Assembly (NCBI GenBank): GCA_016700095.1
Contig: CP065002.1
Span: 1,188,145-1,252,144 of the forward strand
DNA: 64,000 nucleotides
Source of the DNA: Candidatus Woesebacteria bacterium
GTDB lineage: Bacteria; Patescibacteriota; Microgenomatia; UBA8517
Direction of reading: 5' to 3'
Positions within the stretch are counted from its first letter, which is position 1. Each line of letters starts with the position of its first letter. Below the pieces are notes generated by a model. The model worked only from the letters and a program-made list of their open reading frames with translations. It did not search any database and had not been told where the DNA came from. The position numbers were made by a program, and so were the translations under genes. Below, in pieces: positions 5,874 through 17,750 of this stretch.

Positions 5874-6335
5874 TCACTTACTTCTCTCGAAATTAATTGG
5901 CGTCGTGGGAAGGGGGGTAACAATTATATTTTTATTAATTTCAGTGTCGGAAGGAGTCGTGCTGTGCACCTGAACACTAGTCTTGTTATTTTTGTTTTTG
6001 AAATATAAAACAAAGGCTTCTGACGGAGAGATTTTTTCAATGTTTTCAAAATTTATTTTTTCAATGCGAGAAACCACCTTTCCGTCTTTGAAAGCCACAA
6101 TCCTTTTGATGGGACTTTTACGTTCAAATACCAATGAAAAAATACTAAGTAAAATCATCAAAGGAATCACAGAAATTATCAGAAACAACCACCAGTACGA
6201 CTTGGTACTTTCTTTGAATAACATTTTAAAAGTCTTGAAGTTCAAACTAACAAAAACAGTCGTAAAAAATATTAACCCAACATAAGCTGCCAGTCTAATT
6301 AATGTGACAACGTTTGCGTTAAAATTTACATCCAT
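5874..6335 (-). CDS. Membrane protein (two N-terminal TM helices), co-transcribed with the upstream receiver gene
   Basis: 153 aa. Start abuts the response-regulator stop (6335/6336). Hydrophobic N-terminal segments. Confidence 0.4.
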   Translation of the reverse strand: MDVNFNANVVTLIRLAAYVGLIFFTTVFVSLNFKTFKMLFKESTKSYWWLFLIISVIPLMILLSIFSLVFERKSPIKRIVAFKDGKVVSRIEKINFENIEKISPSEAFVLYFKNKNNKTSVQVHSTTPSDTEINKNIIVTPLPTTPINFERSK

Positions 6336-6734
6336 TTATTTAGAAGACAAATGCTCTCTCACCTTGTTTACAACTGTTTCGGGGGTTTGCATTGCTTTTA
6401 CCAGATATTCAATAGCTCCAAGACGCTCGGCTTTCCTTCTGTCATTTTGGCTTACCATATTCGTTAAAATAATAACCGGAATATCTCTTCCTTTTTTTGT
6501 CGCCCTAAGTTTTTCCAAAACATCTAGACCAGATTCTCTGGGCAAACCCACATCAAGAAGAATCAAATTAATATCTTCGTTCTGGGCAAGTTTCAAACCG
6601 GTTTCACCGTCATGGGCAACAAGGATTTTGAATGCCTCAATTGTGAATTTTTCTTCATATAATCTGGAGAGGGTCAAATCGTCCTCGATTAATAAAACCG
6701 TTGCAAGATAAACTCTGCCGTCAGTATCTGTCAT
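6336..6734 (-). CDS. Stand-alone response regulator receiver domain (CheY-like)
   Basis: LIEDD...LLDVGLPRESGLDVLEKLR...IPVIILTN...K. Phospho-acceptor Asp context is present. No output domain. Confidence 0.8.
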   Translation of the reverse strand: MTDTDGRVYLATVLLIEDDLTLSRLYEEKFTIEAFKILVAHDGETGLKLAQNEDINLILLDVGLPRESGLDVLEKLRATKKGRDIPVIILTNMVSQNDRRKAERLGAIEYLVKAMQTPETVVNKVREHLSSK

Positions 6735-7797: not shown

Positions 7798-8259
7798 TTA
7801 AGCAATTCCCAGATGTTTTTTGACTTTCAATACCACTTCTCCCGGTGTTAGATTTGCCTTAAGTAAGTATTCTTTTGCTCCCAACTGGATGGCTTTTTGT
7901 TCTTCGTCTTTTTCAGATAAATTGGTAAGAATTATAACCGGTATAGTTTTTCCCTTAGTGTCGGTTCTTAGTTTCTCCAACAAATCTATTCCCGAAAGTT
8001 GTGGCATCATAATATCTAAAACAATAAAGGAGGGGTCGTTTTTTAAAGCCATATTTAAACCGGTTAGTCCATCCTCGGCTACCATTACTTGAAATCCTTC
8101 ATGAGTAAATTTCGCCTGATACATTTTTACGATCAGGGGATCGTCTTCGACAATTAACACTTTCGGAGAATTTGACATCTTTGCAGTCGACCCATCTTGC
8201 ACACCCTCAACTTCATCGGTCTTTATCGGCTCAACTGTTTTTTCATCTGAATCACTCAT
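7798..8259 (-). CDS. Stand-alone response regulator receiver domain (paralogue of 6336..6734)
   Basis: VLIVEDDPLIVKMY...LDIMMPQLSGIDLLEKLR...IPVIILTN...AKEYLLK. About 50% identical by eye to the other receiver. Confidence 0.8.
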   Translation of the reverse strand: MSDSDEKTVEPIKTDEVEGVQDGSTAKMSNSPKVLIVEDDPLIVKMYQAKFTHEGFQVMVAEDGLTGLNMALKNDPSFIVLDIMMPQLSGIDLLEKLRTDTKGKTIPVIILTNLSEKDEEQKAIQLGAKEYLLKANLTPGEVVLKVKKHLGIA

Positions 8260-8335: not shown

Positions 8336-10033
8336 TTATTTATGCTTTGTGGCTTTTTCTTTTTCTCTCAAAGTTTTTAGCTCAACTTCATTTTGGGCTT
8401 CATTGTTGTCGTGTTCAACCTCAGTAGTTAACGGTTTATCCGAAACAGGTAGCTCAAACCAAAATTCACTCCCTTTTCCAAGTTCAGATTTAAGACCAAT
8501 TTTTCCGTTAAACTTTTCTACCAGTAATTTTGAAATATATAACCCAAGGCCTGTGCCGATTGTTTTTCCCGCTGTGCTTTCCACGCGATAAAATTTCTGG
8601 AATAGTTTGTCTTGTTCTTCTTTGGATATTCCAGGACCCGTATCCTTGACGCCTAAGTGTATCCTGTCTTTTGTAGGCTGAGAAATATTAATGGATATTT
8701 CTCCTGTTTCGGTATATTTAACGGAGTTACTAACAAAATTCCCAATCACTTCATTCAAACGGTCGGGGTCAACTTCTATTTTGTCGTCAATATGTTCGGG
8801 AATATTTATCGAGAATTTGAGACCCTTTCTTTCTGCTTCGAACTTAAAGGAAACATAAATACTATGTGCTACATCGGAAAGCTTGACCACTTCGGTGTTA
8901 TAAATAAGTCTACCCTCTTCAATCCGTGAAACATTCAGCATATTGTTAACCAAGCGAATAAGCCTTTCGTTTACCGAATTTACATCAGTCAAATAACCAA
9001 TTGCTTTTTCAGGAATCACACCGGCATCACCCTCCATTATCATGGAAATGTATCCCTTGATGGCGGTAATTGGGGCACGAAGTTCATGTGCCGCCATGTT
9101 TATGAATTCATTTTTTTGTTTATCGAGGTTTTTTAATTTCTCATTGAGAAATAGTAGTTTTTCTTTCTGACTTAATTCTGTTTTCAAACTTTTGATTAAT
9201 AACATCCCAAATATCGAAATTAATACAAAAACAAAAACGTTAACCGACAGATCAACACTTGTTTGAGAAGAGAATAACCTTGAAAAAAGAATAATCCAAA
9301 TAACAAATGTAAATACTTCCGCCGCAACAATTCTAATATCAAATAGTCTATATCTGATTATTGAATAACTTGTCAATCCTATCATGAACACTGCCGAATA
9401 GTTACCAAACTTATATAATGCATCAGTATGAACAAACAATGGTTTTACAATTGATTGCAATATTATGTTGACCGCAAGGAAGGAAAAAAGACCAAACAAA
9501 AAATACCTAAGTTTGCGTTTCTCGAATTTATCAAGTGTACGCCACATAAATACATAATTAGTAATTGAAAATATTGGTCCAAGTAACATGAAAATATAGA
9601 AGATCCCCGCCATATCACCATCTATATAACTAGCACCCCAACCGAAATAATCAAGCCCAAATATTACTTTATTCGTAAAAATCACAAGTAGTCCAATCGT
9701 AACTGCTATTAAATAAATAAAATAAATTAAAGCTTTTTTTGGCTTTCTCTCCTTGGGGAAATAAAAGGGGAACTCAAAAAGCGTTACGCTCACAATAAGT
9801 AAGGTTAAATAGTTAAGCTTTGCACTCAACAATGCGAAATTCCGAAAATTGGGAATATCAGGTATGAAGGCTAATAAAATCCAGAATGCCGTTGCAATTG
9901 AAAACCTTGCAAATATTCTATTCGCACTTGATTTCTTATCTTGTGAATAAGCCAAGATGCCTAAGTATGACGATGCACCAAAAATTACAACTGCAATAAC
10001 CGTATTAAAAGCTAGATTATTTACAAGCTCCAT
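8336..10033 (-). CDS. Sensor histidine kinase with an N-terminal multi-pass (about 8 TM) sensing domain
   Basis: H-box AAHELRAPITAIKGYISMI, N-box and G-boxes (DTGPGIS, GTGLGLYISK). Long coiled-coil linker. Hydrophobic N-terminal 300 aa. Confidence 0.85.
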   Translation of the reverse strand: MELVNNLAFNTVIAVVIFGASSYLGILAYSQDKKSSANRIFARFSIATAFWILLAFIPDIPNFRNFALLSAKLNYLTLLIVSVTLFEFPFYFPKERKPKKALIYFIYLIAVTIGLLVIFTNKVIFGLDYFGWGASYIDGDMAGIFYIFMLLGPIFSITNYVFMWRTLDKFEKRKLRYFLFGLFSFLAVNIILQSIVKPLFVHTDALYKFGNYSAVFMIGLTSYSIIRYRLFDIRIVAAEVFTFVIWIILFSRLFSSQTSVDLSVNVFVFVLISIFGMLLIKSLKTELSQKEKLLFLNEKLKNLDKQKNEFINMAAHELRAPITAIKGYISMIMEGDAGVIPEKAIGYLTDVNSVNERLIRLVNNMLNVSRIEEGRLIYNTEVVKLSDVAHSIYVSFKFEAERKGLKFSINIPEHIDDKIEVDPDRLNEVIGNFVSNSVKYTETGEISINISQPTKDRIHLGVKDTGPGISKEEQDKLFQKFYRVESTAGKTIGTGLGLYISKLLVEKFNGKIGLKSELGKGSEFWFELPVSDKPLTTEVEHDNNEAQNEVELKTLREKEKATKHK

Positions 10034-10075: not shown

Positions 10076-11602
10076 CTATGTTTTTTTGATGAATTTTGAT
10101 TTATGGAGCAACAAATCACCTTTAAATACACTTTTCTGAAATTCACATATCACAACTTTGGGCTTACACAGTTTACGATCCATATTGTATGCCCCTTCAT
10201 AATCTGGATTATTCTTTAGTAGTTGATCTAAGATCAAGTTAGTATATCTAATTTGTTCTTCTTGTTTTTTCAGAATGTTGTAGGATATATTCTCTTTGAG
10301 CTCTAGATAAATTCGCAACTCTTGATGTTGATTGATGTTATGCTCTACCGCCAGTTTAAAACTGTTGATATCTTTTGCCAACGATCCAAAAAACAAACCT
10401 TCTATATCGCTTGGAAACACCAATGAGCCCCCTATGTTAACAGAAAAGTCACTCCTGCCGGATAAAAATATAAACGGCCACTTCCAAGTGGGAAGGTAAT
10501 TGGCACCTGATTTTAGCAGATTATTGAGCACGTAGCCTCTTGATTCAATTTTTGTCATTACGTCAGAATAGTTTAATACCCCACCTGTATCACCAGTGTC
10601 ATATCTGCAAATTGGCATTCTACCTGGATATGTGACTAAAATTCTTTTATCAGATGATTCAACAAATAAGAAAGGGTTTTTTTGAAAGAGTGAGGGTACA
10701 ACTACCTGGCCAAAAAGATCGATACACAAATTTCGATCCTTTTTACACAAATTTTGTATCAATGTGGTTAATGGTGTACTTGCACCTGGCCCCCCCGAAT
10801 CACTCGTACCATAGTAGTCAAGTACTACCGTTAGATTTTCCTTGTCGTATCCTAGTTTCTCCTGAATATAGTATCGCCACTCTACTGTATGAGGTTCTCC
10901 CCCTAGCATTAAACGTATATTTAGTTTTCGCAAATTTATATCACCTTTCAGTGTCAAATAATCAATCAATTTACGCGCCAATGATGGATAAGTAGCAATA
11001 ATTACCTGATCGTACTTATGGGCAATTTTCTTTAAAATATAATATATATATGTGAAATCAGCCCCTGGGTTGGCAAACGTAAAATTATATTTTTTGGCAC
11101 AATGACTTGCAGCATGAAACTGTAAATTGCCAGATGCCCATATTCCCAAATCCATTGCAGAAATATACAAAGTACTTTTTTCTGCAATTTGCCAATATAA
11201 GTTGTAATAAAAATCAACAAAATAATCATAAGCCAGGTCTGATGTTTCGACTCTTGGCCAAATTAGTGGTTCTCCAGTTGATCCAGAGCTCATATAAAAA
11301 CTGTTCATTTCTCCAATATTTCCGACTAACATGTCTTCAAAAGGATACTTGTTGAAATAATTTTGTTTATTCATAATCGGTGCAAAACATATGTTTTTAG
11401 CGCGTTTAATCGAATTTGGATTGACTTTTTGATCTTTTAAGAATTTAGGGTAAGCACGAACTTTCTTCAACATAAAATTATATATTTTAAAAGCATTATT
11501 CATGGCCCCCAAACTCCAGTATTTCTCATCCTGTTTTTGAATAAAAGACAAAGCTGCTTTATAATTTTCAAAATATTCGTAAGTGATGAAATTCTTTTTC
11601 AT
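10076..11602 (-). CDS. Adenylate-forming enzyme, phenylacetate-CoA ligase (PaaK)/coenzyme F390 synthetase/CapK-like family
   Basis: ANL-superfamily motifs MSSGSTGEP (P-loop-like A3), YPGRMPICRYDTGD (A8 Y-x-TGD), and N-terminal KYPFEDML, as in the PaaK N-domain. Start overlaps the thiF-like stop (ATGA). Confidence 0.6.
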   Translation of the reverse strand: MKKNFITYEYFENYKAALSFIQKQDEKYWSLGAMNNAFKIYNFMLKKVRAYPKFLKDQKVNPNSIKRAKNICFAPIMNKQNYFNKYPFEDMLVGNIGEMNSFYMSSGSTGEPLIWPRVETSDLAYDYFVDFYYNLYWQIAEKSTLYISAMDLGIWASGNLQFHAASHCAKKYNFTFANPGADFTYIYYILKKIAHKYDQVIIATYPSLARKLIDYLTLKGDINLRKLNIRLMLGGEPHTVEWRYYIQEKLGYDKENLTVVLDYYGTSDSGGPGASTPLTTLIQNLCKKDRNLCIDLFGQVVVPSLFQKNPFLFVESSDKRILVTYPGRMPICRYDTGDTGGVLNYSDVMTKIESRGYVLNNLLKSGANYLPTWKWPFIFLSGRSDFSVNIGGSLVFPSDIEGLFFGSLAKDINSFKLAVEHNINQHQELRIYLELKENISYNILKKQEEQIRYTNLILDQLLKNNPDYEGAYNMDRKLCKPKVVICEFQKSVFKGDLLLHKSKFIKKT

Positions 11603-12402
11603 TGGTTTCCTGTAAACTGTTTATAAAAATCAACTGAATATACTTCTGGGGCAACTTTTACATTTTTACCTATACTTAAATAAATACACAAAGTAGAAAC
11701 CATGGAACTTGCGAGGCTTATCGTAATAGACATTTGCGGAAAATAGTTAAGCTCTCGTTTATACATCATAGTACCAACGCGTTTCATCTCTTTTGACGCA
11801 CGATACATATAAGGTTTAGTCAAAACTTCTAACGATAGTGAATCAACACAATTCAGTGAACAGCCATCGTCAAGCCCCATCAAACATTCGAGTGTCTGGC
11901 TTTTGTTTGAGAAGACCATTGCTTTTGCTCCCCAAACTATGTCCAGAAAGTAAATATGATATTTATCATCATATAATCTAATTACTCTATTAATTTGCAG
12001 TTCCTGTTTCAATGATTCCTCGGGAGGCATTGCATCAATAATAATATCCGATTTATTTACAATACTCGCCACATCTTTAATTTCAACCTTACGCGGGATT
12101 ACCCTAATGTTCAAATTAGGATTTATCATTTTCATGTTTTTAGCGAGTGCAACCGCTTTGTTTGATCTGATATCCTCTTGAAAAAAAAATTGCCTATTGA
12201 GATTGTGTAATTCTACATTGTCATAATCTGCCAGAATATAATTTGTGAAACCTGATCCCACAAGTTGCCTAGCGACTTCACTTCCTCCACCACAACCCAA
12301 AATTGCTACTCTTTTGTTTTTAATCTTTAACTGCTCTCTCCATGTCAATATTCCTATATTACGTTTAGTAAATGTTTTATAAAATTCCTCTTTATTTTTC
12401 AT
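11599..12402 (-). CDS. ThiF/MoeB/HesA-family E1-like adenylyltransferase
   Basis: RVAILGCGGGSEVARQLVGSGF...LADYDNVELHNLNRQ is the canonical E1 Rossmann fold plus the D-x-D-x-VE-x-SNLNRQ motif. C-terminal about 100 aa extension of unknown function. Confidence 0.75.
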   Translation of the reverse strand: MKNKEEFYKTFTKRNIGILTWREQLKIKNKRVAILGCGGGSEVARQLVGSGFTNYILADYDNVELHNLNRQFFFQEDIRSNKAVALAKNMKMINPNLNIRVIPRKVEIKDVASIVNKSDIIIDAMPPEESLKQELQINRVIRLYDDKYHIYFLDIVWGAKAMVFSNKSQTLECLMGLDDGCSLNCVDSLSLEVLTKPYMYRASKEMKRVGTMMYKRELNYFPQMSITISLASSMVSTLCIYLSIGKNVKVAPEVYSVDFYKQFTGNQ

Positions 12403-13561
12403 AGGATCTCAAATAACAACCAAATAAAAATAAGGATAAACCAATTAGAAACGAATTTACAATAAATGGAATTGCATAGTCAAATTTGGCATATAATAAA
12501 CCACCCAAAAGTGGACCTCCGACTCGTGCAATAGAATCAAAACTCCAAGTCACACCCATAGTAGCACCATATCCCTCACGACTGCTTCTACTAATAAGTG
12601 ATGCAAGGGTGGGTTCGTTTAACGCTAGTCCCACCGAGAGAATTGCCGAAATCAATAAGAGTATAAGAATGTTTGGAGAAAAACCAATTAACAAGTATGC
12701 TATAACCATAAGCGTTTGAGCAATTATTATCGTAGATCTTTCTCCATATTTTTTAACTATTCTACCTACAAGAAAACCCTGCGTAACAGCTACACTTAGT
12801 CCAATAAATGTAAATATGTAACCAACATTAGCTTCCTTTACGTTTAGTCTATAATTGACAAAAAAGGGAAAGGTTGTTTCAAGGCTTGATAAAGCAAATG
12901 ATACTATAAAAATTTGTATAAACAGCAACCCAAATTTGGAATTAAGATGTTTCACTATTTGAATCACATTAAACAAACTTCCGTCTTCCTTTATTTCTAA
13001 CTTTCTACTTTTGGTTTTCGACTCAGGCAAAAAAACAATTGTAAATATAAAATTTACTAAAGCTATAAAACCAGCAACTAAAAATGGGGTAGTCGGCGAT
13101 ATAGTACTCAATAGTCCACCAAGGGCTGGTCCAAGTACAAAACCCAAACCCCATGCAGCACCAAGCATGCCAAATTTTTCTACTCTTTCCCTCTGTTTTG
13201 TACTATCTGCCACATAAGCGTATGTTGTTGGTAGTGAGGCAGAAGTAAATAAACCTGCTAGTATTCTAGAAACCAATATTGCGTAGATACTAGATGCAAA
13301 AGAGAGCATGATAAACGATAAACTTGTACCCAACAAGCTTGCTAAAATAATTGGTTTCCTGCCAACAACGTCAGAGAGTTTACCCCAAAGTGGGGAGAAT
13401 AAGAACTGCATTAAAGAAAAAGATGCGATGACAGCACCAACGGTAAATGCGGAGACATCGTAACTCTTTATATAAAAAGGTAATAATGGGAATATAATTC
13501 CAAACGAAAGATAATCAATAAACACAGTAATAAACAAAATAAGAAAATGTCTTCTTTTCAT
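12392..13561 (-). CDS. MFS transporter
   Basis: 12 predicted TM segments. MFS loop motif GKLSDVVGRKPIIL between TM2 and TM3. Confidence 0.8.
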   Translation of the reverse strand: MKRRHFLILFITVFIDYLSFGIIFPLLPFYIKSYDVSAFTVGAVIASFSLMQFLFSPLWGKLSDVVGRKPIILASLLGTSLSFIMLSFASSIYAILVSRILAGLFTSASLPTTYAYVADSTKQRERVEKFGMLGAAWGLGFVLGPALGGLLSTISPTTPFLVAGFIALVNFIFTIVFLPESKTKSRKLEIKEDGSLFNVIQIVKHLNSKFGLLFIQIFIVSFALSSLETTFPFFVNYRLNVKEANVGYIFTFIGLSVAVTQGFLVGRIVKKYGERSTIIIAQTLMVIAYLLIGFSPNILILLLISAILSVGLALNEPTLASLISRSSREGYGATMGVTWSFDSIARVGGPLLGGLLYAKFDYAIPFIVNSFLIGLSLFLFGCYLRSYEK

Positions 13562-13670
13562 CTTACTTCTTCCTTACACAATTCTTCCCAACGACTCGCG
13601 TCTTTAGTTTTATAGTCTTTTATATCTTTTGTAATTTCCGATGGATAAAAAAAATACTTGTATCTATTTG

Positions 13671-14738
13671 TTACATATACTCATCGGTGATACTCTTTGC
13701 TTTAATTAACAATTGAGCCAAGGGAGAAATATTTTTTTTCTTACATTCCTCAATACCTTTTTTTAATACGTCTTTAATATTTTCCACTCTTTTTTCGACT
13801 CGCTTAATCCTATAATTTCCATGTTCATATTCATCGGCAACGCTTATTAGCCCACCCGAATTGACAACAAAATCAGGTGCATACAATATACCACGTTTAA
13901 ATAATTTTTCCCCCGTTTTCTCATCGTCCAGTTGATTGTTGGCTCCGCCAGCTATAATTTTACACTTAAGCTCATCTATGTTTCTCTTATTTACACACGA
14001 ACTCAATGCGCATGGGACAAATACATCAACTTCTTGAGAGTGGATCACTTTTGGAGATACGACTTTTACCTTTGGATATTTTTTCTTCACATCATTCACC
14101 ACCCCAATATTAATATCGGCTATATATATTTCACTCGCTTGGTTATATATGTACTCCAAAGCAGTTGATCCTACTTTTCCCACACCTTGTATTGCAAAAC
14201 TCCTTCCTTCACAAGATTCATCTCCAAACGTCTCACTAAGACTAACCTGAATTGCATAAAATATTCCTAACGCCGTAAATCTCACAGGATCAGTTTGAGT
14301 TCCTACAAAATATTTACTATGCTTTTTCATGTTTATAACATCTTCTCTCGACAAGCCAACATCTGCCCCAGTAATGAAACTGCCTGAAAAAGTATTTATT
14401 CTCTTTGCATAAACTTTAAAAAATTCATGTCTATTATTAATACTTTTAGGCATGATTAATACTCCCTTTGCTCCCCCATACTTCAAACCAGCCAAGGCAC
14501 ATTTATAAGACATCGTTCTCGCTAATCTTAATGAATCTTTCAGTGCATCCAATTCCGTTGCATAATTCCAGATACGTGTTGCTCCAAAAGCGGGATGATG
14601 TTTATTGCTTCGATGTATTGAAACAAACCCTTTCAATCCCGTCTTGTTATCCATAAAACAAGTTATCGACTGGTGATTGTCAAACTCGCTTAATTTCGTA
14701 AAATCAACAATTTCTAATAATGTGACGGATTTGCCCAT
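13671..14738 (-). CDS. Glu/Leu/Phe/Val dehydrogenase family enzyme (short, LeuDH/ValDH/PheDH-like)
   Basis: Catalytic Lys motif LKYGGAKGVL, NAD-binding GVGKVGS. 355 aa, the size of Leu/Phe/Val dehydrogenases rather than 450-aa GDH. Confidence 0.8.
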   Translation of the reverse strand: MGKSVTLLEIVDFTKLSEFDNHQSITCFMDNKTGLKGFVSIHRSNKHHPAFGATRIWNYATELDALKDSLRLARTMSYKCALAGLKYGGAKGVLIMPKSINNRHEFFKVYAKRINTFSGSFITGADVGLSREDVINMKKHSKYFVGTQTDPVRFTALGIFYAIQVSLSETFGDESCEGRSFAIQGVGKVGSTALEYIYNQASEIYIADINIGVVNDVKKKYPKVKVVSPKVIHSQEVDVFVPCALSSCVNKRNIDELKCKIIAGGANNQLDDEKTGEKLFKRGILYAPDFVVNSGGLISVADEYEHGNYRIKRVEKRVENIKDVLKKGIEECKKKNISPLAQLLIKAKSITDEYM

Positions 14739-14992: not shown

Positions 14993-16417
14993 ATGGCTGG
15001 AAAAGAATTGATCAGAGTAAACTTCAAACTACCCAAGTCTCTTGCTGATAAATTTTCTCGAGTTGCCAAAAATAGAGGAATTACAAAATCCGAATTGATC
15101 AGAGAGTGGATATTGGATTGTACTGAGCTTCAACTTACAAAGTTAAGTGAGAAAAATAACAGCTGGGTATCCTTTGATTTTCTGGTAGACAAGAAAACCG
15201 AGAATATGATAATTGATTTAGCTCGAGAGTTCTGCGTCAGTAAAAGTGCTTTTCTCAGACTCCTACTTCAGAAGGGAGTTCAGAAAAATATCAGATTTAA
15301 TGTTAATAGAATAAGTAACACCTCACCGTGCGAAAGTATTGGAGATTTATGGAGAGGTGGAAAATTACTAGAGATTATTCACAGAGTCGACGAAGATATT
15401 GAGAAAACCGATTTTTCCGACTTATTCTGGTATACGAAAGCGAACGTTGAGCTAAATAATTACGAAAAGGCAATGTGTGGAATTAATTTAATCAAAACAA
15501 AGTACATCGATAAGGATTTTAATGAATATTACTACAAGAAGATTCTACTACTTGAAGTTGAAATTGAATATGTTCGTCGAAATTTCCCGTTAGCGAATAA
15601 TATCCTGAAACTTGTATTGTCGGGAAATAGTCTAACCAATGAAATAATCGGTTTAGCTCACTATTATTACGGTAGCATTGCAGCTATAACTGAATCGCCA
15701 CGTAAAGTACTAGTTGATCATTACCAAATAGCCCAGAACAATTTAACTTACTCAAAAAACCCATATGAAATAACTAAAATGTATGTATTTTCCAGCTATC
15801 TTCAATTAAGATATGAGAATTACAAAGAAACTGATCAAATCTTAACTAATCTAAGTAGCTGTTTGTTGAAAAACAACAATCAATATCTATCAGGGTGGGC
15901 AATGTCCGCTATCGGTAGACTTAATAGCCTTAGATCTACCAATACAACCGCCGGTAGCAAGATTTTAAGCGATGCATTCGATATTCATAGATGTAATTCC
16001 TATAACCGCGGGATGGTTGAAAGCCTTGCCCTCAATGCATTCAATAAATTTAACCAAGGCAACCATCAAGATGCAGTGAAATTAATTGAAAAATCCTTAA
16101 AAAACGAGGTGGCTTTCCGAAATGCAACATCGGACGGTCTAACTTATTCCGGTTTATTGTTTTCCATGTCTAGAACTAATTATCCGGAATCAATGGAAAA
16201 ATTTAGACATGTGTTAACAACCAGTAGATCCTCACACTATACTCCTAAAATCTACATTTACCATGCCGCCCAGTTTCTGCACGCCGATGGTCATAAGGAG
16301 AAAGAAGCTGGCGAAATAGGATTAAGAAAACTTATGAAATTGGGAAAATACCCGCAAATAAAAACTGCCGCAAGAAATACATTAAAATACAAATCACTTC
16401 AACCTTTTGCTGTTTGA
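14993..16417 (+). CDS. Transcriptional regulator with tandem N-terminal ribbon-helix-helix (CopG/Arc/MetJ-like) motifs and a large C-terminal all-alpha (TPR-like) domain
   Basis: RVNFKLPKSLADKFSRVAKNRGITKSELIREWI is a classic RHH (beta-strand plus two helices). A second RHH-like unit WVSFDFLVDKKTENMIIDLAREFCVSKSAFLRLLL follows. About 350 aa helical C-terminus. Divergent from the dehydrogenase/MFS/ThiF/ligase operon. Confidence 0.5.
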   Translation: MAGKELIRVNFKLPKSLADKFSRVAKNRGITKSELIREWILDCTELQLTKLSEKNNSWVSFDFLVDKKTENMIIDLAREFCVSKSAFLRLLLQKGVQKNIRFNVNRISNTSPCESIGDLWRGGKLLEIIHRVDEDIEKTDFSDLFWYTKANVELNNYEKAMCGINLIKTKYIDKDFNEYYYKKILLLEVEIEYVRRNFPLANNILKLVLSGNSLTNEIIGLAHYYYGSIAAITESPRKVLVDHYQIAQNNLTYSKNPYEITKMYVFSSYLQLRYENYKETDQILTNLSSCLLKNNNQYLSGWAMSAIGRLNSLRSTNTTAGSKILSDAFDIHRCNSYNRGMVESLALNAFNKFNQGNHQDAVKLIEKSLKNEVAFRNATSDGLTYSGLLFSMSRTNYPESMEKFRHVLTTSRSSHYTPKIYIYHAAQFLHADGHKEKEAGEIGLRKLMKLGKYPQIKTAARNTLKYKSLQPFAV

Positions 16418-17168: not shown

Positions 17169-17750
17169 CTATTTCGAGACCGAAATTTCCTCTTTTGTTT
17201 CACCGACAGCCAATCCAACCAAATGACCATTGGCATCTACATGAATCATATAGGCAGTATCTTCGGCATCACCGGTTCTTGGATCAAAAGGCATAGACAC
17301 CATGTAAACCGGTACAATTTCTTCTCCCGCCTCCCCAGCACCAGCCAAATCAAAACAGCCCACACCTGTCCCGATACAGGTTGCTTCAGTTGGAAAACTA
17401 CTGGTCTCCGGATCATTATCGGTATCAGGAAGTTCACCACTATGCTCTGCCGCATACTGCTGTACGGATGACAAAATACCAATCAAATCAGATTCTCTTT
17501 CAAAGTCACGGGATTTCGCAAATTGGCGTTGGGGATTTATAACAATAATCATCACCGTCGACAGGACACTAATAAGAGCAATTACAATTAGGATTTCCAT
17601 CAGACTAAAACCTCCGTTCACTTTTTTATATTTATCCGAAGAATGAAAGTTGAGATTACTATTGCGAAGCAAAACGTGCTTTGAATTAACATGTGATGAT
17701 AAAACTCCTTCTATTTTGGCTTGCGGATACTTTGTTGATTTATTTAACAT
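17169..17750 (-). CDS. pilA: Type IV pilin (prepilin with class III signal: ...KKVNGG|FSLMEILIVIALISVLS, Glu at +5)
   Basis: G|F cleavage/N-methylation consensus with E5 and a hydrophobic alpha-1 helix. The annotated ATG gives an unusually long 45-aa leader. Possible internal GTG start (MNGG|F). C-terminal Cys pair. Confidence 0.75.
   Translation of the reverse strand: MLNKSTKYPQAKIEGVLSSHVNSKHVLLRNSNLNFHSSDKYKKVNGGFSLMEILIVIALISVLSTVMIIVINPQRQFAKSRDFERESDLIGILSSVQQYAAEHSGELPDTDNDPETSSFPTEATCIGTGVGCFDLAGAGEAGEEIVPVYMVSMPFDPRTGDAEDTAYMIHVDANGHLVGLAVGETKEEISVSK

What the first reader, a model, noticed from the sequence alone, without database searches (positions are those of the whole stretch)
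10076..14738. Cryptic four-gene operon: short amino-acid dehydrogenase, MFS exporter, ThiF/E1-like adenylyltransferase, PaaK/F390-synthetase-like ligase
Stop/start overlaps tightly couple MFS (12392..13561), ThiF-like (11599..12402) and PaaK-like (10076..11602). The dehydrogenase (13671..14738) sits 110 bp upstream on the same strand. An E1-like adenylating enzyme paired with an ANL-superfamily ligase and a dedicated exporter suggests synthesis and export of a small amide or acyl-adenylate-derived metabolite. One possibility is a keto acid or amino acid made by the LeuDH-like enzyme and then activated and ligated. No ThiS/MoaD-like GG-ending carrier ORF was found nearby, so the E1-like enzyme may act on the metabolite or a peptide C-terminus, as MccB does. 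I cannot assign this gene set to any pathway I know, and it sits next to a two-component system and a dedicated regulator.
Basis: partly seen in the sequence, partly recalled or inferred. Interest (0 to 1): 0.65.

Follow-up and report, generated by a model that had tools for sequence, protein, structure and literature searches.

The report
CPR acyl-amino-acid cyclase operon with sensor
The four genes are real and form the biosynthetic half of a six-gene operon in a tiny uncultured Woesebacteria bacterium, which probably makes and exports a small cyclised acyl-amino-acid molecule and carries its own membrane sensor, an undescribed relative of known oxazolone and Bacteroidota signal pathways.

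Summary
In detail: dehydrogenase, MFS transporter, ThiF-like enzyme and PaaK-like ligase lie on the minus strand at the stated coordinates, with 11-nt and 4-nt gene overlaps. A 7TM histidine kinase and a receiver protein follow after gaps of 42 and 76 nt and belong to the unit.

The organism is a Candidatus Woesebacteria (CPR). The same gene order recurs in three other Woesebacteria contexts with different flanks.

The ligase family occurs in at least 589 species genomes, almost all CPR. There it usually sits in the order [aromatic-type dehydrogenase or aminotransferase] – ligase – ThiF – flavin oxidase – 7TM kinase, and fused proteins link dehydrogenase, ligase and ThiF. In that common form, ThiF plus oxidase is a split version of Rv1355c/TrzS, the published oxazolone synthase.

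The window's variant has no oxidase, has an MFS exporter, and has a short ThiF. Its closest solved relative is AclA, from the Bacteroidota N-acyl-cyclolysine quorum-sensing pathway.

Best reading (inferred, confidence about 0.5): the ligase makes an N-acyl aromatic amino acid with ATP, ThiF adenylates and cyclises it, MFS exports it, and the kinase may sense it.

No ThiS-like carrier, precursor peptide or acyltransferase was found. I rate it a new variant of a known kind.

The parts
13671..14738 (-). ELFV-family amino-acid dehydrogenase (355 aa) with an aromatic-type (PheDH/TrpDH-like) substrate pocket
   Evidence: Pfam ELFV_dehydrog and ELFV_dehydrog_N. Best NCBIfam hit is Trp_DH_ScyB, 260 bits, below its cutoff of 600. 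PDB hits: LeuDH 3vpx 1e-71 and TrpDH 5b37 4e-60. Catalytic K/K/D are conserved. At LeuDH positions L40/G42/A113/V291/V294 it has F/A/G/L/V, against M/A/G/L/V in TrpDH 5b37 and L/G/A/V/V in the LeuDHs.
12392..13561 (-). MFS transporter (389 aa), DHA1 / Tet(A)-like exporter type, translationally coupled to ThiF
   Evidence: MFS_1 E 1.8e-71. Best NCBIfam hits are Tet(A/B/C)-family efflux (225 bits, below its cutoff of 475) plus siderophore exporters. It overlaps ThiF by 11 nt. It is present in all four Woesebacteria-type loci and absent from the common CPR form.
11599..12402 (-). Short stand-alone ThiF/E1-like adenylating enzyme (267 aa). It has no peptide-clamp or RRE domain and no CxxC zinc motifs. 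Its closest solved relative is AclA.
   Evidence: PF00899 E 2.8e-30. All NCBIfam hits are below cutoff; the only full-length match is PRK08223. phmmer against PDB: 9egb over the full length, E 1.9e-12. AF2 pLDDT 87.6; Foldseek top hit 9egb 'AclA from Tenacibaculum discolor', E 1e-16, TM 0.75-0.81, ahead of MoeB and ThiF. hhalign against the AclA family: 233 columns, E 6e-24. Invariant GCGGGS, D59/D61, NLNRQ, K82, D119/D123 and C181, plus a YFPQM motif.
10076..11602 (-). PaaK-family (ANL superfamily) adenylate-forming ligase (508 aa), founding a large, mostly CPR family. Proposed ATP-dependent N-acyl-amino-acid (amide) synthetase.
   Evidence: No Pfam hit and weak PaaK hits. Fold matches the PaaK family. 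ANL motifs are invariant. The profile search found 941 cluster representatives at E<=1e-30, and at least 589 species genomes carry a relative. It occurs fused to the dehydrogenase and/or ThiF in P0014, P0024, P0037, P0093 and P0127.
8336..10033 (-). Histidine kinase (565 aa) with an N-terminal 7TM sensor region. Candidate receptor or regulator of the pathway.
   Evidence: HisKA_7TM 2.9e-8, HisKA and HATPase_c. It starts 42 nt after the ligase stop. A kinase is in the cluster in 45 of 57 full-flank CPR loci. Its sensor region alone (residues 1-285) matches 49 of the 60 other cluster kinases.
7798..8259 (-). Stand-alone receiver-domain response regulator (153 aa) downstream of the kinase
   Evidence: Response_reg E 2.5e-24 with no output domain. 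A receiver protein also follows the kinase in L001 and lies beside it in L091.

Best explanation
The locus is a Woesebacteria-specific variant of a very widespread CPR gene cluster. That cluster makes a small cyclised N-acyl amino acid, related to the oxazolone pathways (OxzAB/TyzACB/TrzAS) and the Bacteroidota N-acyl-cyclolysine (AclA) pathway.

Proposed steps:
1. The aromatic-type amino-acid dehydrogenase interconverts an arylpyruvate and the matching aromatic amino acid and so supplies a substrate. That it is an active ELFV enzyme with an aromatic-type pocket is shown; the direction of the reaction is inferred.
2. The PaaK-family ligase adenylates a carboxylic acid and passes the acyl group directly to the amino group of the amino acid. 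This gives an N-acyl amino acid without acyl-CoA, and the ligase thereby replaces the N-acyltransferase of the known pathways. This step is inferred from gene replacement, fusions and fold.
3. The short ThiF-like enzyme adenylates the alpha-carboxylate of that N-acyl amino acid. An internal nucleophile then closes a ring, or the invariant Cys181 captures the acyl group. This step is inferred from homology to AclA and to TrzS-type cyclases.
4. The co-translated MFS pump exports the product (inferred).
5. The co-transcribed 7TM histidine kinase and stand-alone receiver either sense the product or control its synthesis (inferred from conserved linkage).

The window variant has no flavin oxidase. 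Its product is therefore probably not the unsaturated oxazolone made by TrzS-type systems.
For: Organism and distribution: the ligase is 100% identical to a Candidatus Woesebacteria protein on a 1.27-Mb contig.

Window-type cluster: the order DH-MFS-ThiF-ligase-HK(-RR) is conserved in L001/L002, L091 and L092 with unrelated flanks.

Size of the ligase family: 941 representatives at E<=1e-30, and at least 589 GTDB species genomes, nearly all CPR.

Synteny in 57 full-flank loci of the common form:
- ThiF in 53
- Acg-type flavin oxidase in 47
- histidine kinase in 45
- all three in 40
- dehydrogenase in 20, class I/II aminotransferase in 8, either one in 27. These were the gene called immediately upstream of the ligase in 19 and 8 loci respectively.

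Rosetta-stone fusions: DH-ligase, DH-ligase-ThiF, ligase-ThiF and ThiF-ligase.

Link to known chemistry: in the common form, ThiF matches the N-half of the Rv1355c family (up to 324 bits, E 1.5e-96) and the oxidase matches its C-half and the Acg family. Rv1355c is TrzS, an ATP-dependent cyclase plus O2-dependent desaturase of N-acyl-Trp (PMC12856293).

Window ThiF: its closest solved structure is AclA, PDB 9egb. AclA belongs to the two-enzyme N-acyl-cyclolysine signal pathway (PMC13080023, PMC13419125), and its gene neighbours are a LuxR/GerE regulator and a weak FeeM-like N-acyl amino acid synthase.

Ligase: the fold hits include PaaK-family enzymes (NatL2, AjiA1, ClxA) that, from my own knowledge, do not use CoA. 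GH3 hits among family members are faint.

Dehydrogenase: all 32 cluster dehydrogenases have Gly at LeuDH-A113, and 25 have Leu at V291, as in TrpDH. All known natural N-acyl oxazolones derive from Tyr, Phe or Trp (PMC12856293).

Kinase: the 7TM sensor domain is shared between both cluster variants.
Against: Nothing here is biochemical. No substrate, product or activity was measured.

- The window ThiF is only 22-26% identical to AclA. It aligns with the CPR TrzS-type ThiF profile only over its N-terminal 120 residues, so an orthologous function is not established.
- The window has no flavin oxidase in 64 kb, no N-acyltransferase and no LuxR. It therefore fails the defining gene content of both known pathways.
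- Amide formation by the ligase, rather than CoA thioester formation, is untested.
- A dehydrogenase or aminotransferase is present in only about half of the common-form loci, so its role is accessory and its direction is unknown.
- The invariant Cys181, which is absent from AclA, could point to thioester or transfer chemistry rather than cyclisation.
- Kinase linkage does not show that the kinase binds the product.
Confidence: 0.5

Rival explanations
1. Same chemistry, but the product is not a signal. It would be a membrane-active lipid, an antimicrobial or a stress metabolite, as has been considered for mycobacterial oxazolones and N-acyl tyrosines. The kinase and receiver would only regulate expression in response to an unrelated cue.
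For: The physiological role of the known oxazolones is unresolved; antimicrobial and stress roles are discussed in PMC12856293. The MFS is of the drug/siderophore efflux type. Linkage to the kinase is equally compatible with regulation.
Against: The same 7TM sensor family stays attached to the cluster through a change of ThiF type, loss of the oxidase and gain of the MFS. That is what would be expected of a cognate synthase-receptor pair. The closest solved ThiF relative is a quorum-signal synthase (PMC13419125).
Confidence: 0.25
2. The ThiF-like enzyme activates a peptide or protein C-terminus. This could be RiPP maturation of the MccB/PaaA type, or an E1-style conjugation through the invariant Cys181. 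The ligase and dehydrogenase would then modify or supply a group to be attached.
For: The ThiF superfamily mostly acts on proteins and peptides (PMC12596934). Cys181 is invariant and sits in a loop at roughly the crossover-loop position. MccB and PaaA appear among the PDB hits.
Against: The 267-aa protein starts directly with the Rossmann fold and has no RRE or peptide-clamp domain. There is no small ORF in the operon's intergenic gaps and no conserved ORF of at least 45 aa across 88 loci. There is no E2, JAB or Ubl gene. MccB and PaaA score well below AclA. ORFs shorter than 45 aa were not screened across loci.
Confidence: 0.1
3. Ordinary catabolism or salvage of aromatic or branched-chain amino acids. 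The dehydrogenase would make the 2-oxo acid, and a PaaK-type aryl- or acyl-acetate-CoA ligase would handle the acid, as in anaerobes and archaea. ThiF and the MFS would be unrelated neighbours.
For: The fold and the weak sequence hits are to phenylacetate-CoA ligases. The dehydrogenase is an ordinary active ELFV enzyme.
Against: The ligase scores 43 bits against a PaaK cutoff of 646 and forms its own large family. It is physically fused to ThiF and to the dehydrogenase in several CPR proteins. No 2-oxoacid:ferredoxin oxidoreductase or paa genes appear in any locus. The stop/start overlaps tie the MFS and ThiF to it.
Confidence: 0.08
4. A sulfur-carrier pathway making a thiocarboxylate metabolite, as in thioquinolobactin or PDTC. 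There an E1-like enzyme, a ThiS-like carrier and an AMP-ligase cooperate and an MFS exports the product.
For: The gene set E1-like + AMP-ligase + MFS resembles those clusters (from my own knowledge of the qbs and pdt clusters). The highest-scoring NCBIfam hit of the ThiF is ThiS adenylyltransferase PRK08644, 103 bits, N-terminal part only.
Against: There is no ThiS/MoaD-like ORF in the window operon or in 88 related loci. There is no rhodanese domain, JAMM protease or CxxC zinc motif. All ThiF and MoeB models are below cutoff. The nearest full-length relatives are small-molecule cyclases.
Confidence: 0.04
5. An anti-phage system of the CBASS/Cap2 or 6A-MBL type that uses an E1-like enzyme.
For: The ThiF matches PADLOC E1-E2 models (best E 1.1e-17) and the NCBIfam 6A-MBL cap2_3 model.
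Against: Only the generic ~100-residue Rossmann segment matches (residues 24-140). There is no E2 domain. The other three proteins have no PADLOC hit. No cyclase, effector or JAB gene is nearby.
Confidence: 0.01

Closest known systems
TrzAS (Rv1356c/Rv1355c) N-acyl tryptazolone pathway of Mycobacterium tuberculosis, with TyzACB and OxzAB (oxazolone synthetases)
   Same: A ThiF-like enzyme adenylates the carboxylate of an N-acyl aromatic amino acid and closes a ring, with no carrier protein. In the common CPR form of this cluster, ThiF and the adjacent Acg-type flavin oxidase are the two halves of the Rv1355c family model. The ligase, kinase and dehydrogenase of the window are homologous to those of that common form.
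   Different: The window has no flavin oxidase, so no desaturation step. It has no acyl-CoA N-acyltransferase of the OxzA/TyzA/TrzA type; a PaaK-family ATP-dependent ligase takes that place. Its ThiF is short, lacks the roughly 100-aa N-terminal domain of TrzS, and aligns with TrzS-type ThiF only over the Rossmann part. It adds a dehydrogenase, an MFS exporter and a 7TM kinase. The hosts are CPR bacteria rather than Actinomycetota or Pseudomonadota.
AclA (PDB 9egb, Tenacibaculum discolor), ThiF-like enzyme of the N-acyl-cyclolysine quorum-sensing pathway of Bacteroidota (Linares-Otoya et al., Nature 2025)
   Same: A stand-alone ThiF of about 250-270 aa with no RRE domain and no zinc motifs. 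It is the best full-length sequence and structure match to the window ThiF. The two share a C-terminal PQ(L/M) motif. It belongs to a small synthase module that is encoded next to its receptor and makes a secreted acyl-amino-acid-derived signal (PMC13080023).
   Different: Identity is only 22-26%. The partner of AclA is a small protein with only a sub-threshold FeeM (N-acyl amino acid synthase) hit (E 0.0066), and the receptor is a LuxR/GerE regulator. Here the partner is a PaaK-type ligase and the candidate receptor is a 7TM histidine kinase. The window-type ThiF has an invariant Cys181 that AclA lacks. The dehydrogenase pocket suggests an aromatic amino acid, not lysine.
PaaK-family AMP-ligases that act without CoA (NatL2, AjiA1, ClxA of benzoxazole pathways) and GH3 acyl-acid amido synthetases
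   Same: Same fold and same adenylate-forming motifs. They set a precedent for transfer of the acyl-adenylate directly to an O or N nucleophile instead of to CoA (my own knowledge of these enzymes). GH3 Pfam hits in 3 of 13 family members are faint.
   Different: Identity is 13-16%. The protein is about 80 residues longer than PaaK and has an N-terminal extension. The substrates are unknown, and no activity has been tested.
Synthase-receptor pairs with membrane histidine kinases (CqsA/CqsS, LuxM/LuxN)
   Same: A signal synthase is encoded next to a polytopic membrane histidine kinase. The resemblance is in organisation only and comes from my own knowledge.
   Different: There is no sequence relationship, and ligand binding by the CPR 7TM kinase is entirely untested.

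Membership tests
Oxazolone synthetase pathways (OxzAB / TyzACB / TrzAS) | ThiF-like cyclase of the OxzB/TyzB/TrzS clade | tested here: inconclusive
   The window ThiF hits the Rv1355c model with 55 bits (cutoff 476), over residues 3-123 only. hhalign against the CPR TrzS-type ThiF profile covers only 120 N-terminal columns. By contrast, ThiF of the common CPR cluster form hits the Rv1355c N-half at up to 324 bits, still below the whole-protein cutoff because the protein is split.
Oxazolone synthetase pathways (OxzAB / TyzACB / TrzAS) | Acg-type flavin-dependent oxidase fused to or adjacent to the ThiF | tested here: not met
   tblastn of 68 cluster oxidase sequences (from 67 loci) against the whole 64-kb window gave no hit at E<=0.01. 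None is present in L001, L091 or L092. It is met in 47 of 57 common-form CPR loci. The rest of the 1.27-Mb genome could not be searched.
Oxazolone synthetase pathways (OxzAB / TyzACB / TrzAS) | Adjacent acyl-CoA-dependent amino acid N-acyltransferase (OxzA/TyzA/TrzA) | tested here: not met
   No acyltransferase family appears among the genes of the window operon or among the conserved gene families of 88 loci. The PaaK-like ligase occupies the slot.
N-acyl-cyclolysine (ACL) signalling module of Bacteroidota | AclA-type ThiF-like enzyme | tested here: inconclusive
   It is the best PDB match by sequence (E 1.9e-12, full length), by fold (E 1e-16, TM 0.75-0.81) and by profile (E 6e-24, 233 columns). 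Identity is only 22-26% and no phylogeny was made.
N-acyl-cyclolysine (ACL) signalling module of Bacteroidota | Adjacent small N-acyl amino acid synthase and LuxR/GerE receptor | tested here: not met
   AclA homologue loci carry GerE plus a 201-216-aa protein; the 216-aa one (L088) has a weak FeeM hit and the 201-aa one (L089) has no Pfam hit. The window has neither. It has a PaaK-like ligase and a kinase-receiver pair instead.
Phenylacetate-CoA ligase PaaK (equivalog) | Score above the curated cutoff; paa pathway context | tested here: not met
   TIGR02155 scores 43.3 bits against a cutoff of 646.3, and NF041878 scores 38.8 against 700. There are no paa genes nearby. Fold and ANL motifs are met at superfamily level.
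ThiF/MoeB sulfur-carrier adenylyltransferases | ThiS/MoaD-like GG-ended partner, CxxC zinc site, score above cutoff | tested here: not met
   There is no such ORF and there are no CxxC pairs. The best model, PRK08644, scores 103.5 bits against a cutoff of 159 and covers residues 20-147 only.
RiPP E1-like enzymes (MccB, PaaA, GrcB, IndF) | N-terminal RRE/peptide-clamp domain and a precursor peptide gene | tested here: not met
   The Rossmann fold starts at about residue 30 of 267. There is no candidate precursor in the 109-, 42- and 76-nt gaps. ORFs under 45 aa were not screened across loci.
ELFV amino-acid dehydrogenases, leucine-specific subgroup | LeuDH pocket residues L40, A113, V291 (B. 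sphaericus numbering; from my own knowledge of Baker et al. 1995 and Seah et al. 1995) | tested here: not met
   The window has F, G and L at these positions, as in TrpDH 5b37 (M, G, L). The LeuDHs 3vpx, 6acf and 8hpe have L, A and V. Membership of the ELFV family itself is met.
MFS DHA1-type exporters | MFS_1 fold with similarity to drug:H+ antiporters | tested here: met
   MFS_1 E 1.8e-71. Tet(A/B/C)-family model 225 bits, below the specific cutoff of 475. The substrate is not testable here.

The most novel reading that the evidence does not exclude
The six-gene unit, and the far commoner ligase-ThiF-oxidase-kinase cluster of other CPR bacteria, is a self-contained synthase / exporter / receptor circuit for a diffusible cyclised N-acyl amino acid. 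It would be the first cell-cell or symbiont-host chemical signalling system native to the Candidate Phyla Radiation. It would be built on an ATP-dependent PaaK-type amide ligase instead of an acyl-CoA or acyl-ACP acyltransferase, and it would be read by a 7TM histidine kinase.
Probability: 0.25. Interest if true: 0.85.

Novelty: new variant of a known kind. Interest (0 to 1): 0.64.

Why it matters
CPR/Patescibacteria have tiny genomes and little biosynthetic capacity, and they live attached to other microbes. How they sense partners or each other is largely unknown.

Here a compact cluster for a probable acyl-amino-acid-derived heterocycle is found in at least 589 species-level genomes, almost always joined to one family of 7TM sensor kinases. 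That gives a concrete, testable candidate for a CPR chemical signal.

It would also extend two recently described chemistries. Oxazolone lipids, whose function in M. tuberculosis is still unknown, and Bacteroidota N-acyl-cyclolysine signals would gain a new phylum and a new way of making the N-acyl amino acid: a PaaK-type ligase using ATP, with no CoA.

I found no paper in the searchable library that links these pathways to CPR, to a PaaK-like ligase or to an ELFV dehydrogenase.

Tried and rejected
- **Locus search.** The search for related loci with the broad ligase alignments A1 and A2 failed because no conserved stretch was found. A closer alignment, A3, worked.
- **Literature dead ends.** Searches for '9EGB/9EGC/9EGD', 'AclA' and 'AclA + ThiF' found nothing useful. 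The identity of 9egb came from the Foldseek description. Its biology came only from secondary citations, because the Nature paper itself is not held. The search for 'Rv1355c/moeY' alone returned only genomics papers.
- **Sulfur-carrier reading.** Rejected: no ThiS-like ORF and no zinc motifs.
- **Defence-system reading.** Rejected: only the Rossmann segment matches E1-E2 models.
- **Terminator and promoter scan.** Counts are no higher than in shuffled sequence, and there is no terminator-like site in the intergenic gaps, so it neither splits nor proves the operon.
- **Ligase outside CPR.** The Desulfobaccales homologue has a different context, with no ThiF or oxidase. The linkage therefore seems specific to the CPR branch.
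- **RHH protein.** The 474-aa RHH protein as a 'dedicated regulator' is not conserved next to the operon in L001, L091 or L092.

Full report
**1. Observation**

ORF listing confirms four minus-strand genes at exactly the stated coordinates:
- 13671-14738 (355 aa)
- 12392-13561 (389 aa)
- 11599-12402 (267 aa)
- 10076-11602 (508 aa)

MFS and ThiF overlap by 11 nt. ThiF and the ligase overlap by 4 nt. The dehydrogenase is 109 nt upstream of the MFS gene, and that gap holds no ORF.

Pfam assigns ELFV_dehydrog plus its N-terminal domain, MFS_1 (E 1.8e-71) and ThiF (E 2.8e-30).

The 508-aa protein has no Pfam hit. It weakly matches PaaK models, 43 bits against a cutoff of 646, and PaaK structures at E about 3e-3. 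An AlphaFold model built on 13 homologues (pLDDT 84.6) matches PaaK-family structures best: BT_0428, PaaK1, NatL2, AjiA1 and ClxA at E 1e-20 to 1e-15. The ANL motifs SSGSTGxP, YG(T/S)xD, RYxxGD and a C-terminal Lys are invariant or nearly so.

On the same strand, 42 nt after the ligase, lies a histidine kinase with an N-terminal HisKA_7TM region (8336-10033). A stand-alone receiver (7798-8259) follows 76 nt further on. No terminator-like site falls in the intergenic gaps.

**2. Organism and the window-type cluster**

The ligase is identical to a protein of a Candidatus Woesebacteria MAG on a 1.27-Mb contig. Close homologues (49-57% identity) all come from Woesebacteria/Microgenomates.

Three further contexts show the same order, DH - MFS - short ThiF - ligase - (methyltransferase on the other strand in two of them) - 7TM kinase - receiver. 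These are L001/L002, L091 and L092, and their flanking genes differ.

**3. The wider family**

A profile search of 1.84 billion representatives found 941 at E<=1e-30, mostly full length and about 500 aa. Almost all are CPR: Paceibacterota/Parcubacteria, Kaiser-, Wolfe-, Lipton-, Magasanik- and Saccharibacteria-labelled MAGs.

I called ORFs in 88 loci and clustered them by BLASTP. In the 57 loci with enough flank, I counted the following:
- ThiF in 53
- an Acg-type flavin oxidase in 47
- a histidine kinase in 45
- all three in 40
- an ELFV dehydrogenase in 20
- a class I/II aminotransferase (Aminotran_1_2, E 5.5e-44) in 8

The dehydrogenase or aminotransferase was the gene called immediately upstream of the ligase in 19 and 8 of these loci.

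The usual order is [DH or aminotransferase] - ligase - ThiF - oxidase - kinase. No conserved small ORF of at least 45 aa was found, so there is no ThiS/MoaD-like carrier.

Fused proteins tie the enzymes together:
- DH-ligase (P0037)
- DH-ligase-ThiF (P0093, 1242 aa)
- ligase-ThiF (P0014, P0024)
- ThiF-ligase (P0127)

**4. Link to known chemistry**

In the common form, the 360-395-aa ThiF matches the N-terminal half of the NCBIfam Rv1355c family model (up to 324 bits, E 1.5e-96). The roughly 350-aa oxidase matches its C-terminal half and the Acg family.

Rv1355c is now characterised as TrzS. [quoted passage not shown] The TyzACB system (PMC10404671) and the OxzAB system (bioRxiv 10.1101/2020.06.11.147165) do the same with Tyr or Phe. 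A 2025 review calls OxzB the only ThiF-like enzyme known to act on a small molecule (PMC12596934).

None of these papers mentions a PaaK-like ligase, an ELFV dehydrogenase, a histidine kinase or CPR. The common CPR cluster is therefore best read as a split TrzS-like oxazolone synthase in which a PaaK-family ligase stands where the N-acyltransferase should be.

**5. What is special about the window**

The window variant has no flavin oxidase and no aminotransferase anywhere in 64 kb (tblastn). It does have an MFS exporter.

Its ThiF is short. Close relatives occur only in Woesebacteria. It aligns with the TrzS-type CPR ThiF profile only over the N-terminal 120 columns.

Its best full-length match among solved structures is PDB 9egb. 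This holds by phmmer (E 1.9e-12, residues 13-255), by Foldseek (E 1e-16, TM 0.75-0.81, ahead of MoeB and ThiF at about 3e-13) and by hhalign against the family (E 6e-24, 233 columns).

The entry 9egb is 'AclA from Tenacibaculum discolor in complex with substrate'. Secondary sources describe the acl system as two enzymes encoded next to a luxR gene. They make secreted N-acyl-cyclolysines that act in cell-density-dependent signalling in Bacteroidota (PMC13080023, and PMC13419125 citing Linares-Otoya et al., Nature 2025). I could not read the primary paper.

AclA homologues sit beside a GerE/LuxR gene. They also sit beside a 201-216-aa protein; the L088 copy has a weak FeeM (N-acyl amino acid synthase) hit, E 0.0066.

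The window ThiF keeps the adenylation residues: GCGGGS, D59/D61, NLNRQ, K82 and D119/D123. It lacks CxxC zinc motifs and any N-terminal peptide-binding domain. It shares a C-terminal PQ(L/M) motif with AclA and with the CPR TrzS-type ThiF.

One feature is unexplained. Cys181 is invariant and sits in a loop roughly where the E1 crossover-loop cysteine lies, and AclA has no cysteine there.

**6. The dehydrogenase**

The catalytic Lys, Lys and Asp are conserved in all 32 cluster-associated dehydrogenases. All 32 have Gly at the position of LeuDH A113, and 25 have Leu at V291.

In the printed alignments the window enzyme reads PAFGATR / ITGADVG / GGLISV. Nostoc TrpDH 5b37 reads PAMGATR / ITGQDV / GGLINV. 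The three LeuDHs read PALGGTR / ITAEDVG / GGVINV.

From established work on LeuDH and PheDH (A113/V291 against G124/L307; my own knowledge), this pair marks a pocket for bulky aromatic side chains. That fits the fact that all known natural N-acyl oxazolones derive from Tyr, Phe or Trp (PMC12856293). The label 'LeuDH-like' is therefore misleading.

**7. The kinase**

The N-terminal 285 residues of the window kinase, which form the 7TM sensor alone, match 49 of the 60 other cluster-associated kinases at 22-37% identity, in most hits over nearly the whole sensor region. The same sensor family thus stays with the biosynthetic genes in both cluster variants. This argues that it belongs to the system. 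It does not show what the sensor binds.

**8. Mechanism proposed**

Shown:
- gene content, order and coupling
- family and fold of each protein
- intact catalytic motifs
- conserved linkage and fusions
- absence of carrier, precursor, acyltransferase and (in the window) oxidase

Inferred:
- The ligase adenylates a carboxylic acid and acylates the amino group of an aromatic amino acid.
- The dehydrogenase supplies one of the two substrates by interconverting arylpyruvate and amino acid. The direction is unresolved, and the step is accessory because only 27 of 57 loci have a dehydrogenase or aminotransferase.
- ThiF adenylates the alpha-carboxylate of the N-acyl amino acid, and a ring closes or the acyl group is transferred.
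- The MFS exports the product.
- The kinase and receiver sense or regulate.

Without an oxidase the window's product is probably not an unsaturated oxazolone. A saturated 5(4H)-oxazolone would be labile, so another ring or an amide is possible. I put about 0.5 on this overall scheme.

**9. Rivals**

- The same chemistry with a non-signal role (0.25).
- Modification of a peptide or protein C-terminus (0.1). Against it: no RRE domain and no precursor. For it: Cys181. ORFs under 45 aa were not screened.
- Ordinary aromatic or branched-chain amino acid catabolism with a CoA ligase (0.08). Against it: the fusions, the scores far below cutoff, and no oxidoreductase genes.
- A sulfur-carrier thiocarboxylate pathway (0.04). 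Against it: no carrier and no zinc site.
- A CBASS-like defence system (0.01). Only the Rossmann segment matches.

**10. Comparison and novelty**

The locus works most like the oxazolone and ACL pathways, but it is a member of neither. It fails the oxidase and acyltransferase criteria of the first, and the FeeM-like synthase and LuxR criteria of the second. Its ThiF cannot be placed in either clade with the data at hand.

I class it as a new variant of a known kind. It is an ATP-ligase-dependent N-acyl-amino-acid cyclase module, coupled to a kinase, specific to CPR, and apparently undescribed in the searchable literature.

Interest is moderately high. The cluster is very widespread in a poorly understood radiation, and it offers a testable candidate for a CPR signalling molecule. 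The interest is tempered because every functional step is inferred.

Noticed in passing
window 14993-16417 (+): A 474-aa protein with an N-terminal ribbon-helix-helix domain (RHH_1, E 1.3e-5) and a long unassigned C-terminal region. It is transcribed divergently from the dehydrogenase. It is not found beside the operon in L001, L091 or L092, so it is probably not a conserved dedicated regulator.
   Followed up: partly
window 17169-17750 (-); also L001:724-1206, L092:4329-4802: Proteins with a prepilin-type N-terminal methylation motif lie upstream of the operon. Pilin and PilM genes also flank two of the related Woesebacteria loci.
   Followed up: no
window 6336-6734 (-) and 5874-6335 (-): A second stand-alone receiver-domain protein (Response_reg, E 2e-20) is followed by a 153-aa protein with a weak DUF5381 hit. 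L001 also has a second receiver gene nearby.
   Followed up: no
window 11599-12402, residue Cys181 of the ThiF: A cysteine is invariant in all 12 Woesebacteria-type ThiF proteins. It lies in a predicted loop roughly where the E1 crossover-loop cysteine sits. It is absent from AclA and is not invariant in the TrzS-type CPR ThiF.
   Followed up: partly
L054:11889-12821 and 7 other common-form CPR loci: A roughly 310-aa protein with no Pfam hit sits between the flavin oxidase and the histidine kinase in 8 loci. It may be an additional pathway component.
   Followed up: no
L009:11615-12961 and 5 other CPR loci: A radical SAM/SPASM protein (448 aa) lies near the cluster in 6 loci. SAM methyltransferases lie inside or beside the cluster in L001, L092 and L004. 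Both could be tailoring enzymes.
   Followed up: no
L090:6285-8503 (Desulfobaccales MAG): Outside CPR, a 30%-identical homologue of the ligase follows a gene with a weak Prok-JAB hit. It has no ThiF or oxidase nearby, so its context is different and unexplained.
   Followed up: partly
L088:6001-8331, L089:309-2614 (Flavobacteriaceae): AclA homologues are flanked by a GerE/LuxR gene on the opposite strand and by a 201-216-aa protein. The 216-aa copy (L088) weakly hits the FeeM N-acyl amino acid synthase model (E 0.0066); the 201-aa copy (L089) has no Pfam hit. In L089 an NRPS locus follows.
   Followed up: partly
many common-form CPR loci, e.g. L008, L026, L045, L051: The cluster often lies directly downstream of grpE-dnaK-dnaJ (DnaJ in 15 loci, DnaK in 14). 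This is a recurrent chromosomal position across distant CPR lineages.
   Followed up: no
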